Origin: Escherichia coli
GTDB lineage: Bacteria > Pseudomonadota > Gammaproteobacteria > Enterobacterales > Enterobacteriaceae
DNA: 64,000 nucleotides
NCBI RefSeq assembly: GCF_044324875.1
Contig: NZ_CP172185.1
Strand: one strand, 5' to 3'
Each line of letters begins with the position of its first letter. Positions within the stretch are counted from its first letter, which is position 1. Made by a program: the position numbers and the translations under genes. Shown here piece after piece: positions 11,442 to 14,400 of the stretch. The notes under the pieces were generated by a model that saw only the letters and a program-made list of their open reading frames with translations, ran no database searches and was not told where the DNA came from.

Positions 11442-14400
11442 ATGCAAAGGAAAAAATTGCTCAGTGTCTGTGTTGCAATGGCGTTAAGCAGTCAGACATG
11501 GGCGGCAGATACGTCGATAGCGGAAACATCGGATGAATCTCGTAAATCCAGCAAGATTAGCTGCCCGGCTAATATTAAATCACTAAGTAAAGAACAGCTA
11601 GAAAAGCTGCCGGCAGAGTGTAAATCAGTTGAAGATAATGAGTTATTACCCTGGGCTGCAGTGGGGCTGGCAGCGGCAGTCACAGGCGTCGCAGTATATG
11701 CACTCCACGATAATAATAATCATCATGACGATCCGTCTCCGGTGCCGGATGATGGCGGTGATACACCCGTCCCGCCGGATGATGGCGGTGACACGCCAGT
11801 CCCGCCGGACGATGGCGGCGATACACCCGTCCCGCCGGATGATGGCGGTGATACACCCGTCCCGCCAGATGATGGCGGCGACACACCTGTCCCGCCGGAT
11901 GATGGCGGCGATACACCCGTCCCGCCGGATGATGGCGGCGATACACCAGTCCCGCCAGACGACGGCGGTGACACGCCAGATGATGGCGGCGATGATACCC
12001 CGGACGACGGTGGCGATGACACGCCAGTCAAACACGATCCTGTGGTCTATAAAAACGATGTCACCTGGGATCAGGACGCGAAGACCCTAAAATTACGTGA
12101 TACCACCTTTACCTACGCCAAAAATGACGATGGCAGCTATACGCTTACCGGACCTGGCGGCACTACCACAATCGTGAAGGATTGGTTAGTCGACGAGGCG
12201 GCTAACACGGCTTCGTTCAATGGCGTCAATCCTGGCGGAACCTCCACCTGGCGCTATGACGAAGCGGGAAAAATCGAAATAATCATAGAGTCACTCACCA
12301 CCGCAGACGGTACAACTGGCGAACATTTCCATATTAACGATGCCACTATTACCGACCATGGCGGCAACATCGCCCTGAATGGCGGCGTTGTGATAAACGT
12401 TGACGGTAACGACATCACCCTGAACAACGACGGCAAAACTACCGCGATTGGTGAAGGTTCGGTGGTAGGTATTCTTACCGGTGATGATATCACCATTACT
12501 AATAATGGTGAGACGGAAGTTGATGGTGGGACGGCCGTTATTGTCAATGGCGATCGTACGACATTGAATGTCGCAGGTGATTCGACATTCACCAATGGCG
12601 GTACCGGTAGTCTGATTAATGGCGATGACGCCAAAGTCGATAATAAAGGTACAATGAACGTTGATGGTGAAAATTCGACTGGCTCGAAAATTAATGGTAA
12701 TGATGCACTGGTGAAACAAGAGGGTGACCTCTTTGTCAGCGGTGGTGCGAAGGGTATTGATGTCACTGGTAATAGTACCATTATCAGCAATAAAGGTAAT
12801 ATTACCGTAGTTGATGAAAAATCCATTGGTATATTGTTGGATGGTAACGATAGCGCATTCATCAATATGGGGGACATCAGCGTCAGTGATGGCTCAGCCA
12901 GTGAAAACGCAATCGGCGTACTCATCGAGGGTGATGGCTCAACGTTAATTAACGTGGGCGATGTGAGTGCGCAAAATGCGGCAACTGCAATTAAAATTGT
13001 TGGTGATAATTCCAGTATCGCCCTTGCCGGGCTTGTTGAAACCGGTGGTTTTTCGACCGGACTGGAAATCACCGGTGACAATAATACCCTGACGATGTCA
13101 ACATATGCGCTGAATGTTATCGGTGAACAGTCAGCGGGGGTTATTGTATCTGGCGATAATAACAATCTCGAAATTACGGGTTCGATGGTCGTTGATGGTG
13201 ATTCCGTTGGGACACTTGTTACCGGGAATGGCGGAAAAGTAAGTCAGAAAGGTGACCTTTTTGTTAGTGATGCCGGACGTGGTATTGATATCAGTGGTGA
13301 CCGGGTTACACTCGGTAATACTGGTAAAATCACGGTAGAAGATGCTAACTCTGTAGGCATTATTATTGAAGGTGATGATGCAGTATTTAAGTCTACTGGG
13401 GAAATCAATGTTTCACTTGATGGCCAGGGAGCAGCGATTTCAGGCGACCGTGAAGACGTCAGTTTGAGCGGGGATATTAATGTAACTCAGCAACGTGACA
13501 GTAATGGGGTTTTTGTAGGAGGAACCGGCGTTGATATGTCCGGGGACGATAGTCATATCTCATTGGATGGTAATATCAATCTTGTATCCCTTATGGGAGA
13601 CTCTCCGACAATATCTGGGGATAGTTTAACTGGGTTATCCGTTGGCGGTGATAACAATACGGTCGATTTGAGTGGTAACATTAATATCAATGTTGGTTCT
13701 GGCTATTTGAATGACCAAGCTGTGCTGGTTGGAGTGGATGTTACAGGTGAAAATAACACAATCAATTTAGAGGGCGGTATAAATATCACTGGTGATAGCG
13801 GTGGTCATTCAATCAAGGGAGTTTCTGTTACCGGAAACAACGTGATGAATATCAGTGGTCATTCACAAATGAACTCGCGGCAAGTCAGAGGAGCCTTCAC
13901 ATTAGTGAGCGTAGCGGATGGCGGACATGCCATTTTTGATGAAAATTCAGTCACTGATTTTGACGTCAGGGCGAGAGATACCAATTGGTATCTGGATGAT
14001 GCCCTAATTACCGCAACGGGTATCGGCTCTGAAATAGAAAACCACGGCATTATCAATACTACCGATGCGCAGGACTTGATGATGGCGCGTGCTGGTGCAG
14101 AGATAAAAAATACGGGCACCATTAACGTGAAACCTGGCACTGAAGCGTACGCAAGAGCTGGCGTTATGCGCGCTATAGATGAGGGCTCTCGTGCAGTCAA
14201 TGGGGCTGGTGGTATTATTAATCTGGTATCAACAACAGTACCAACGGGTTCCTCCGGTTCGTATGAGTTCCCTGTTGTATGGTATCACGGCACCAACTTT
14301 GCGCTGTTAGCCAGCAATTACGGTGATGTGACGAATGAGTCCGGCGCAACAATTAATATTCATGGTCCTGGGGTCTATGGTGTTGCCGCTTCTCGTGGTA

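What the first reader, a model, noticed from the sequence alone, without database searches (positions are those of the whole stretch)
11739..12026. Tandem 30-bp coding repeats (PVPPDDGGDT x about 8) in the ydbA passenger domain
Eight near-identical 30-nt units, followed by two degenerate DDGGDDTP units, encode an acidic proline-rich spacer just after the signal peptide. Such arrays are prone to copy-number change by slipped-strand mispairing, so this is a likely variable-number locus and a source of surface-protein length variation.
Basis: seen in the sequence. Interest (0 to 1): 0.35.

Follow-up and report, generated by a model that had tools for sequence, protein, structure and literature searches.

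The report
Variable-length proline-aspartate repeat in ydbA
A run of ten short in-frame DNA repeats near the start of a large E. coli surface-adhesin gene (ydbA/BigA family) is real and changes copy number between closely related strains, which is an ordinary kind of length variation; here an IS1 insertion has also broken the gene.

Summary
Window 11739-12026 holds 1x27-nt, 7x30-nt and 2x24-nt head-to-tail units, in frame in a BigA/YdbA-family autotransporter gene. They encode PVPDDGGDT, (PVPPDDGGDT)7 and (PDDGGDDT)2.

The predicted copy-number variation is confirmed:
- Window-type alleles carry 8-19 units.
- The clonal O157:H7 lineage carries 2, 4, 5, 7 or 9, changing by a 57-bp two-unit block.
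- Fourteen intact E. albertii orthologues differ only by 3-16 units.
- All changes are in frame, and breakpoints fit slippage or unequal recombination.

- The array is not just after the signal peptide. It follows a conserved 78-residue module (Cys-Cys loop, hydrophobic segment, His patch) and precedes the BigA_N domain.
- K-12 ydbA has no repeat here.
- In this window an IS1 insertion splits the gene, so no surface protein can be made.

Unexpected: the peptide is almost invariant while synonymous sites are near saturation (pN 0.007, pS 0.63; flanks pN 0.17-0.36). Each unit is therefore under strong purifying selection, more than a passive spacer needs.

Verdict: a real polymorphic repeat encoding an acidic extended linker; a new member of a known kind; modest interest.

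The parts
11442..15663 (+). 5' part (codons 1-1407) of a BigA/YdbA-family type Va autotransporter gene at the ydbA locus (between ydbL and pdxI/ydbC)
   Evidence: ORF list; translation; NCBIfam auto_BigA partial match and Pfam BigA_N; synteny in strain NY1601 and in K-12
11442..11504 (+). Putative Sec signal peptide, residues 1-21 (MQRKKLLSVCVAMALSSQTWA / AD)
   Evidence: Sequence inspection only; conserved across the family. No signal-peptide predictor was available.
11562..11621 (+). Conserved Cys41-Pro42 ... Leu56 ... Cys60 segment of the N-terminal module
   Evidence: C41, P42, L56 and C60 are invariant in a 20-sequence family alignment
11643..11705 (+). Hydrophobic, Gly/Ala-rich segment, residues 68-88 (LLPWAAVGLAAAVTGVAVYAL); no flanking Lys/Arg
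   Evidence: Highest Kyte-Doolittle 19-mer in the first 200 residues, mean 1.77; W71 nearly invariant and G75 invariant; AlphaFold2 pLDDT below 50
11706..11738 (+). Asn/His/Asp-rich patch, residues 89-99 (HDNNNHHDDPS), leading into the array
   Evidence: a similar G/N/D/His-rich patch occurs in all family members aligned
11739..11765 (+). Repeat unit A, 27 nt, PVPDDGGDT (lacks one Pro codon)
11766..11975 (+). Repeat units B-H, seven 30-nt units, each encoding PVPPDDGGDT and differing only at synonymous third positions
   Evidence: pairwise pS 0.44 and pN 0 among these units
11976..12026 (+). Repeat units I and J, two 24-nt units encoding PDDGGDDT, plus the closing Pro codon
12042..12281 (+). 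BigA_N small beta-barrel domain, residues 201-280, immediately downstream of the array
   Evidence: Pfam PF25784, E 1.1e-25; AlphaFold2 pLDDT 85-93, all-beta
15655..15663 (.). Left copy of the 9-bp target-site duplication ATGCTGGGG
15664..16431 (+). IS1 element (768 bp, insA/insB) inserted in ydbA at codon 1407
   Evidence: IS1 end sequences read; terminal-repeat pattern match at 15664; IS1 transposase matches
16432..16440 (.). Right copy of the target-site duplication ATGCTGGGG
   Evidence: removing 15664-16440 in silico restores one uninterrupted 2026-codon ORF ending KKTF
16441..18299 (+). 3' part of ydbA: BigA_beta sandwich (about 17001-17252) and autotransporter beta-barrel translocator (about 17613-18209), then the stop codon
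   Evidence: Pfam PF25783 and PF03797 and NCBIfam auto_BigA positions 1292-1874 on ORF 16509..18299

Best explanation
The array is an in-frame intragenic variable-number tandem repeat in a BigA/YdbA-family autotransporter gene. It encodes a strongly acidic, proline-rich, non-globular linker of about 96 residues. The linker joins a conserved N-terminal module (Cys-Cys loop, hydrophobic segment, His-rich patch) to the BigA_N beta-barrel and the beta-helical passenger. Shown: copy number changes by whole units or two-unit blocks of 24-33 nt or 57 nt, always in frame, between closely related strains. Inferred: the changes arise by misalignment of the near-identical units during replication or recombination. 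Shown: units within one array resemble each other more than units of other alleles (concerted evolution), yet every unit keeps the same peptide (purifying selection). Inferred: the peptide acts as an extended, charge-stiffened tether whose length is free to vary. In this window the gene was recently inactivated by IS1, so the array is now a repeat in a pseudogene.
For: Structure of the array. Gene identity and architecture.

Copy-number polymorphism, with arrays typed unit by unit:
- The window is ABCDEFGHIJ. Strain Nord122 is ABCDEF-HIJ. Strain EFF60 is ABCDEF-K-J, where K is the 5' part of G fused to the 3' part of I.
- In the O157:H7 lineage the arrays are xyxyz{| (7 units), xyz{| (5), xyx| (4), xyxyxyz{| (9) and x} (2).
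- Among 374 genomes with the O157-type allele, 209 keep the EDL933 length and 160 fall in the 95-99% identity band. All ≥96%-coverage rows of that band in the 60-row sample are length variants, at 800, 743, 710 and 653 nt.
- Fourteen intact E. albertii orthologues differ only by 3-16 PPDDGGNVT units; the remaining 1659 residues are constant in length.

Selection: 49 distinct 30-nt unit variants encode only 4 peptides. All ten third codon positions are polymorphic. pS is 0.63 and pN 0.007, against flank pN of 0.17-0.36.

Concerted evolution: 1.8-3.5 differences per unit within arrays, against about 4.5-8 between allele classes.

Non-globular nature: AlphaFold2 gives coil with pLDDT 49-58 across the array, next to a confident BigA_N domain. 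There is no Pfam or PDB match.

Family-wide picture: a Pro/Asp repeat linker of varying unit type, and from about 10 to over 160 residues long, sits at the same position.

The same PPDDGG[DE]VT repeat lies next to membrane or wall anchors in unrelated proteins.

IS1 is the only lesion in the gene.
Against: - No experiment shows the protein or the linker's conformation; the spacer role is an inference from composition, position and prediction.
- The near-absolute conservation of the 10-residue peptide is more than a passive spacer should need.
- The linker is at the N-terminal, cell-distal end of the passenger. It therefore cannot be the stalk that lifts the passenger off the membrane; what it tethers (residues 22-99) has no known function.
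- Many carriers have an inactivated gene (IS1 here; a premature stop at codon 1012 in O157:H7). Much of the observed variation may therefore be neutral.
- Only about 40 arrays were read at sequence level. Other counts rest on BLAST match lengths.
Confidence: 0.8

Rival explanations
1. The units form a sequence-specific functional module, for example a divalent-cation, ligand or receptor binding motif built on the PDDGG[DN] core, and copy number tunes avidity. This can coexist with the repeat-polymorphism mechanism.
For: - Extreme purifying selection: pN/pS is about 0.01 in units against 0.2-0.45 in the flanks.
- The PDDGG[DN] core recurs in E. albertii, Enterobacter and unnamed relatives with different unit lengths.
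- It also recurs in unrelated secreted proteins.
Against: - No known motif matches: no Pfam hit even at E up to 10. By inspection it does not fit the RTX GGxGxD or the DxDxDG calcium-binding patterns.
- K-12 ydbA replaces it with a non-repetitive Pro-rich stretch.
- Some family members use PVDP or PIPDPTPD units, or almost no linker.
- Copy number ranges from 3 to 16 in intact genes.
Confidence: 0.25
2. Immune-driven antigenic length variation of an exposed immunodominant repeat, as for the pertactin regions (GGXXP)n and (PQP)n.
For: - The location is the distal end of an autotransporter passenger.
- It is a Pro-rich short-unit repeat with many length alleles within species.
- Pertactin is a precedent (PMC3279416).
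Against: - The peptide sequence itself does not vary, so there is no epitope change, only length change.
- Variation continues in lineages where the gene is a pseudogene (O157:H7).
- No serological data exist.
Confidence: 0.12
3. Envelope-spanning tether: the hydrophobic segment (residues 68-88) stays embedded in a bacterial membrane, or inserts into a host membrane, and the repeat is the spacer next to that anchor.
For: - The segment is TM-like by Kyte-Doolittle (1.77), and it is conserved, with W71 nearly invariant and G75 invariant.
- In unrelated proteins the same repeat lies directly beside an anchor: a C-terminal TM helix in P0101, and between the autochaperone domain (1869-1962) and the C-terminal region, where no beta-domain was called by Pfam, in P0045; a similar PSEGGDTPVT-type repeat lies upstream (residues ~730-860) of a weak, sub-threshold LPXTG match (1074-1115) in P0018.
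Against: - There are no flanking positive charges.
- My hand estimate on a biological hydrophobicity scale is unfavourable for stable insertion.
- A stop-transfer anchor after a cleaved signal peptide would leave the passenger in the cytoplasm.
- Linkers as short as about 10-45 residues occur in intact relatives, so no fixed span is required.
- AlphaFold2 is uninformative here.
Confidence: 0.08
4. On/off phase-variation switch by frameshifting, or an assembly or chance artefact.
For: Tandem repeats in surface-protein genes often act as phase switches. One database fragment (P0012) reads through the array out of frame.
Against: - All unit lengths are multiples of three (24, 27, 30, 33 nt), and every array read is in frame.
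- The variation is seen in complete genomes with consistent, interpretable unit patterns.
- It is the only strong tandem repeat in 64 kb.
Confidence: 0.01

Closest known systems
Pertactin (Bordetella) polymorphic regions R1 (GGXXP)n and R2 (PQP)n
   Same: Short Pro/Gly-rich in-frame repeats inside the passenger of a classical autotransporter, with copy number differing between circulating strains (PMC3279416).
   Different: Pertactin repeats are loops on a solved beta-helix, and variants also change sequence. Here the array is a roughly 100-residue acidic linker upstream of the first folded passenger domain. Its unit is 10 residues, its peptide is invariant, and its range is much larger (2-19 units).
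E. coli tolA intragenic tandem repeat
   Same: An in-frame 15/18-bp repeat tract in an envelope protein of E. coli. Copy number ranges from 8 to 16 among isolates. Contractions were measured at 6.9e-5 and depend on RecA (PMC3477136). This is the best available model for the mutational mechanism.
   Different: The TolA repeats encode a Lys/Ala-rich alpha-helix spanning the periplasm in an essential-function protein. The ydbA repeats encode a Pro/Asp/Gly coil in a frequently pseudogenised adhesin.
Pro-rich or acidic spacer regions next to anchors (TonB Pro-rich spacer, staphylococcal Clf/Sdr Ser-Asp repeat region); from general knowledge, not tested here
   Same: Low-complexity, extended, charged segments of variable length that separate a functional domain from a membrane or wall anchor. 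Near-identical PPDDGG[DE]VT repeats lie beside or near anchor-proximal regions in P0045 and P0101, and a similar PSEGGDTPVT-type repeat in P0018.
   Different: In YdbA the linker is at the N-terminal end, far from the C-terminal beta-barrel anchor. The only candidate 'anchor' beside it is an uncharacterised hydrophobic segment.
Salmonella BigA / E. coli K-12 YdbA
   Same: Same domain set (BigA_N, BigA_beta, autotransporter beta-domain) and, for ydbA, the same chromosomal locus. BigA is described as having an AIDA-I-like passenger (PMC3419190).
   Different: K-12 YdbA has a roughly 40-residue non-repetitive Pro/Asp linker with no tandem repeat. The window protein is only about 42% identical to a K-12-like YdbA (P0022, row 20) over the first 330 residues, and it scores far below the NCBIfam BigA cut-off.

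Membership tests
Type Va (classical) autotransporter, BigA/YdbA group | C-terminal autotransporter beta-barrel domain (PF03797) | tested here: met
   ORF 16509..18299, residues 369-567, E 7.6e-19. It is contiguous with the 5' ORF once IS1 is removed in silico.
Type Va (classical) autotransporter, BigA/YdbA group | BigA_N (PF25784) and BigA_beta (PF25783) domains | tested here: met
   E 1.1e-25 and 1.2e-25
Type Va (classical) autotransporter, BigA/YdbA group | N-terminal Sec signal peptide | not testable with these tools
   Inspection only: MQRKK, then a hydrophobic core, then TWA/AD. No predictor was available.
Type Va (classical) autotransporter, BigA/YdbA group | Intact, expressible gene | tested here: not met
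   An IS1 with a 9-bp target duplication splits the gene at codon 1407. The gene is a pseudogene in this window.
Salmonella-type BigA (NCBIfam NF033178) | Score at or above the curated cut-off of 3400 bits | tested here: not met
   581.6 and 818.1 bits for the two fragments. It is a relative of BigA, not BigA itself.
ydbA locus of E. coli | Position upstream of pdxI(ydbC)-ydbD | tested here: met
   Strain NY1601 (99.9% identical over the 859-nt query) and O157 show ydbH-ynbE-ydbL-[gene]-pdxI-ydbD. K-12 ydbA also precedes pdxI-ydbD.
Variable-number tandem repeat (intragenic, in frame) | Head-to-tail repeated units | tested here: met
   Tandem Repeats Finder: period 30, 7.5 copies, score 352
Variable-number tandem repeat (intragenic, in frame) | Copy number differs among closely related strains | tested here: met
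   2, 4, 5, 7 and 9 units within O157:H7; 8, 9 and 10 units on nearly identical window-type flanks; 3-16 units in E. albertii
Variable-number tandem repeat (intragenic, in frame) | Changes by whole units with breakpoints in shared sequence (slippage or unequal recombination) | tested here: met
   Loss of unit G, a G/I fusion unit, and (xy)1-3 blocks. The mutational process itself was not observed.
Phase-variable (on/off) contingency locus | Unit length not a multiple of three, so that a copy change shifts the frame | tested here: not met
   Units are 24, 27, 30 or 33 nt and all arrays are in frame
Calcium-binding repeats (RTX GGxGxD; DxDxDG loops) | Match to the consensus motif | tested here: not met
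   By inspection GGDTPVPPD and DDGGDT do not fit either consensus. No Pfam match at E up to 10.
Published typing loci for E. coli O157 (MLVA) | The locus is named in a typing scheme | tested here: inconclusive
   No paper combines ydbA with VNTR. The unit peptide does not appear in the searchable literature. Vhec1 has 21-45 copies, so it is a different locus. The original 2003-2005 scheme papers are not held.

The most novel reading that the evidence does not exclude
The PVPPDDGGDT units are not a passive spacer but a selected, sequence-specific element. It works together with the conserved N-terminal module (disulfide loop, Gly/Ala-rich hydrophobic segment, His patch). One possibility is a cation-binding polyanionic rod that sets the reach of a membrane-inserting or receptor-binding tip at the distal end of the adhesin. 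Copy number would then be a tunable functional parameter.
Probability: 0.12. Interest if true: 0.6.

Novelty: new member of a known kind. Interest (0 to 1): 0.3.

Why it matters
- Practically, this is a ready-made length marker. It resolves sublineages inside clonal groups such as O157:H7 (at least five alleles) and E. albertii (at least seven). It is also long enough, at 57 to about 560 nt, to be collapsed or to break short-read assemblies.
- Biologically, it shows that the BigA/YdbA adhesin family carries a hypervariable-length but sequence-invariant acidic linker between an uncharacterised conserved N-terminal module and the passenger. That combination of free length and frozen sequence is a concrete handle for asking what the N-terminal module does.
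- For this window, the gene is dead (IS1), so the array has no phenotypic consequence here.

Tried and rejected
- Literature: ydbA plus autotransporter plus repeat, ydbA plus VNTR, ydbA plus tandem repeat, the peptide PPDDGGDT, O157 plus VNTR plus 30-bp, and the locus tags ECs2006/Z2322 gave no description of this repeat. ECs2006 appears only as a SNP-typing locus and in a list of adhesin genes.
- Vhec1 was considered as a possible name for the locus and rejected, because it has 21-45 copies. Whether Vhec5 or Vhec6 is this locus could not be resolved, because the scheme papers are not held.
- A plasmid search for the array found only a mislabelled 4.9-Mb chromosome.
- PDB and Pfam searches of residues 1-330 and 1-201 found nothing for the array or the N-terminal module. 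The only PDB hits were designed beta-propellers matching the BigA_N region weakly.
- AlphaFold2 of residues 1-330 with a 20-sequence alignment gave no usable model for residues 1-99, so no fold search was run.
- A search for the IS1 junction found no complete E. coli genome with the same insertion, so the source strain was not identified.
- The first word-indexed protein search returned mostly gene fragments. These are useful as examples but may include collapsed assemblies, so conclusions rest on complete genomes.
- Phase variation, RTX or EF-hand-like calcium motifs, and antisense ORFs across the array were considered and rejected. The antisense ORFs are explained by the GC-rich, stop-free repeat, and the synonymous-only pattern fits the + frame.
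Full report
**1. Observation**

Window 11739-12026 lies in frame in ORF 11442..15668(+). The array has these parts:
- one 27-nt unit encoding PVPDDGGDT (11739-11765);
- seven 30-nt units, each encoding PVPPDDGGDT (11766-11975);
- two 24-nt units encoding PDDGGDDT (11976-12023);
- a closing Pro codon (12024-12026).

Tandem Repeats Finder gives period 30, 7.5 copies, 89% matches and score 352. It also gives a period-90 reading with score 402. This is the only tandem repeat scoring 80 or more in the 64-kb window. The 96 encoded residues are D32 P26 G20 T10 V8, with net charge about -32. GC content is 68%, against 48% for the ORF.

**2. The gene and its state in this window**

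The 1408-codon ORF carries a BigA_N domain (PF25784) at residues 201-280, directly after the array. ORF 16509..18299 carries BigA_beta (PF25783) and the autotransporter beta-domain (PF03797). Both ORFs match NCBIfam auto_BigA, but far below its cut-off.

Between the two ORFs lies a complete IS1 (15664-16431). It is flanked by a 9-bp target duplication, ATGCTGGGG, at 15655-15663 and 16432-16440. Deleting IS1 plus one duplicate in silico restores a single 2026-codon ORF with no internal stop, ending in KKTF. IS1 is therefore the only lesion, and the gene is a recent pseudogene.

None of 5426 complete E. coli genomes has this junction. The window holds three IS1 copies.

In the closest genome, and in O157:H7, the gene order is ydbH-ynbE-ydbL-[this gene]-pdxI-ydbD. 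K-12 ydbA also precedes pdxI-ydbD. Calling the locus ydbA is therefore justified. The allele, however, is only about 42% identical to a K-12-like YdbA (P0022, row 20) over the first 330 residues.

**3. Position of the array in the protein**

The array is not just after the signal peptide. The order is:
- residues 1-21 look like a Sec signal peptide (inspection only);
- residues 41-60 are a Cys...Cys segment;
- residues 68-88 are a Gly/Ala-rich hydrophobic stretch, the most hydrophobic 19-mer in the first 200 residues (Kyte-Doolittle mean 1.77), with no flanking Lys/Arg;
- residues 89-99 are Asn/His/Asp-rich;
- the array follows (100-195), then BigA_N.

In a 20-sequence family alignment C41, P42, L56, C60 and G75 are invariant and W71 is nearly so. 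The array therefore links two conserved parts.

AlphaFold2 models the array as coil (pLDDT 49-58). It models BigA_N confidently (85-93) and gives nothing usable for residues 1-99. Residues 1-200 have no Pfam or PDB match.

**4. Is the copy number variable? Yes.**

*Coverage.* Megablast of 11442-12300 found the allele in 114 of 5426 complete genomes. Of these, 89 are at 99% or more with the same length, and about 10 differ by gaps. Sensitive blastn found related alleles in 655 genomes.

*Unit-by-unit typing.* I fetched 17 arrays and typed each unit by its DNA sequence.

| Allele class | Array (unit labels) | Units |
|---|---|---|
| Window and NY1601 | ABCDEFGHIJ | 10 |
| Nord122 | ABCDEF-HIJ (unit G lost) | 9 |
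| EFF60 | ABCDEF-K-J (K = 5' of G fused to 3' of I) | 8 |
| Other window-type alleles | | 8, 9, 12, 14, 19 |
| O157:H7 EDL933 / Sakai | xyxyz{\| | 7 |
| Other O157:H7 strains | xyz{\|, xyx\|, xyxyxyz{\|, x} | 5, 4, 9, 2 |
| Related deer isolate | | 12 |
| Third allele class (starts EPDDGGDT) | | 7, 10 |

The EFF60 fusion unit K is a deletion with its breakpoint in the shared GATGATGGCGGCGAT. In O157:H7 the changes amount to gain and loss of a 57-bp xy block, plus one internal deletion.

*Frequency in O157:H7.* Among 374 genomes with the O157-type allele, 209 keep the EDL933 length and 160 fall in the 95-99% identity band. All ≥96%-coverage rows of that band in the 60-row sample are length variants. 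Sampled match lengths were 800, 743, 710 and 653 nt.

*E. albertii.* Fourteen intact orthologues have 3, 6, 7, 12, 14, 15 or 16 PPDDGGNVT units. The remainder of the protein is constant at 1659 residues.

*Frame and intact carriers.* All unit lengths are multiples of three, so every change is in frame. Intact genes of about 1940-2020 codons with 7, 8, 9, 10, 12 and 14 units exist.

*K-12.* K-12 ydbA has no tandem repeat here. Its linker is SPLPPTPPDDESDDTPVPPTPGGDEIIPDDPDDTPTPPKP.

**5. Evolutionary signature**

- Across these arrays, 49 distinct 30-nt unit sequences encode only four peptides, and 45 of them encode PVPPDDGGDT.
- All ten third codon positions are polymorphic. First and second positions are nearly invariant.
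- Pairwise pS among the window's seven full units is 0.44, with pN 0.
- Over all variants pS is 0.63 and pN 0.007.
- The flanking 99-100 codons, compared between allele classes, have pN 0.17-0.36 at pS 0.67-0.80.
- Units within an array differ by 1.8-3.5 nt. Units of different allele classes differ by about 4.5-8 nt, out of roughly ten synonymous positions.

The arrays therefore evolve in concert, by unit turnover within arrays. Each unit's peptide is also under purifying selection much stronger than that on the neighbouring folded domains. Homogenisation alone cannot explain this, because it would also erase the synonymous differences.

**6. Family and convergent context**

An exhaustive representative search shows the same architecture across relatives: signal peptide, CP...C loop, W-x-W-GG/AA hydrophobic segment, G/N/D/His patch, Pro/Asp repeat, BigA_N. 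Named sources are E. albertii, Enterobacter cancerogenus and Citrobacter. Unit types vary:
- PPDDGGNVT x16;
- PDDGGNT x15;
- PIPPDDGGDT x7;
- PTPPDDGGDT;
- PVDP repeats;
- PIPDPTPD repeats;
- almost no linker in two members.

Near-identical PPDDGG[DE]VT repeats also occur in unrelated proteins, next to an anchor:
- P0045, an ESPR/PATR autotransporter, has the repeat between the autochaperone domain (1869-1962) and the C-terminal region, where no beta-domain was called by Pfam.
- P0101 and two cluster-mates have 4-6 copies before a C-terminal TM helix.
- P0018 has a similar repeat (PSEGGDTPVT-type) at residues ~730-860, upstream of a weak, sub-threshold LPXTG-anchor match at 1074-1115.

This supports a generic spacer role for the motif class. 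It also shows that such repeats vary in number elsewhere.

**7. Mechanism, with steps marked**

Shown:
- The array is an in-frame tandem repeat.
- Copy number varies by whole units or blocks among near-identical strains.
- Breakpoints lie in shared sequence.
- The peptide is conserved.
- The segment is predicted to be non-globular.

Inferred:
- Changes arise by slipped-strand mispairing or RecA-dependent unequal recombination. The E. coli tolA repeat is the precedent, with contractions at 6.9e-5 (PMC3477136).
- The peptide forms an extended chain stiffened by proline and charge repulsion, which tethers the N-terminal module to the passenger.

Not known:
- what residues 22-99 do;
- whether they are retained in the mature protein;
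- why the unit sequence is so constrained.

In this window (IS1), and in O157:H7 (one in-frame stop at codon 1012), the gene cannot deliver a passenger. Variation there is best read as neutral mutation.

**8. Comparison with known systems and novelty**

The closest known analogue is the pertactin (GGXXP)n/(PQP)n polymorphism in an autotransporter passenger (PMC3279416). The tolA repeat is the closest analogue for mechanism. Anchor-proximal Pro-rich or acidic spacers (TonB, the Ser-Asp repeats of staphylococcal adhesins; general knowledge) are the closest for the physical role.

I found no paper describing this repeat. Whether it is one of the less-used O157 typing loci could not be settled. 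RefSeq already labels the O157 product as a 'proline-rich domain-containing protein'.

It is a new member of a known kind. A specialist would not be surprised by a variable repeat in an adhesin gene. The one non-obvious result is free length combined with a frozen peptide sequence.

**9. Limits**

- About 40 arrays were read directly. Population figures come from BLAST identity bands and match lengths.
- Fragment proteins from short-read assemblies may be collapsed and were not relied on.
- No signal-peptide or disorder predictor was available.
- No expression or protein data exist.

Noticed in passing
window 15655-16440: A complete IS1 (768 bp) with a 9-bp target duplication ATGCTGGGG splits ydbA at codon 1407. 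Removing it in silico restores an uninterrupted 2026-codon ORF. None of 5426 complete E. coli genomes has this junction.
   Followed up: yes
window 15664, 22787 (- strand), 39337: Three exact IS1 terminal repeats lie within 64 kb, so there are at least three IS1 copies. This density is unusual for typical E. coli and is reminiscent of Shigella-like, IS-rich genomes. The source strain was not identified.
   Followed up: partly
window 11562-11738 (residues 41-99): A conserved N-terminal module of unknown function lies upstream of the array. It has invariant Cys41-Pro42...Cys60, a Gly/Ala-rich hydrophobic segment (68-88, TM-like by Kyte-Doolittle, no flanking Lys/Arg) and an Asn/His/Asp patch. 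It is present in all BigA/YdbA relatives aligned. It has no Pfam or PDB match, and AlphaFold2 is not confident there.
   Followed up: partly
window 11179-11213 and 11285-11345: Two weak AT-rich degenerate tandem repeats (periods 13 and 21, scores 42 and 52) lie in the roughly 400-bp ydbL-ydbA intergenic region, upstream of the start codon. A regulatory role is possible but was not examined.
   Followed up: no
L009 8001-13715 (O157:H7 EDL933); L019 (Sakai ECs_2006/ECs_2007): The O157:H7 orthologue is annotated as two genes ('BigA-like/proline-rich' and 'BigB-like/beta-barrel'). It is one reading frame interrupted by a single in-frame stop at codon 1012.
   Followed up: yes
P0013 and P0161-P0174 (E. 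albertii): Intact E. albertii orthologues differ in length only through 3-16 copies of a 9-residue unit, PPDDGGNVT. The other 1659 residues are constant in length.
   Followed up: yes
P0045, P0101/P0185/P0186, P0018: Almost the same PPDDGG[DE]VT repeat occurs in unrelated secreted proteins directly beside or near an anchor: after the autochaperone domain in P0045, and before a C-terminal TM helix in P0101 and its cluster-mates; P0018 has a similar PSEGGDTPVT-type repeat ~200 residues upstream of a weak LPXTG match. It varies in copy number there too (4, 5 and 6 copies).
   Followed up: partly
window about 11040-11441 compared with L018 (K-12): In K-12, ydbA is immediately preceded by the paa genes (paaK-paaX-paaY) and ynbG. 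In this window, in NY1601 and in O157, ydbA follows ydbL directly. From general knowledge, K-12 carries the fea-tynA-paa cluster between ydbL and ydbA.
   Followed up: partly
P0006, P0009, P0010: Database proteins exist in which the YdbA N-terminus, up to or into the repeat, is fused to unrelated sequence: a methyltransferase-like part, a part with Pfam domains PF24421/PF24489, and an MscS-like part. These may be rearrangements or assembly chimeras at or near the array.
   Followed up: no
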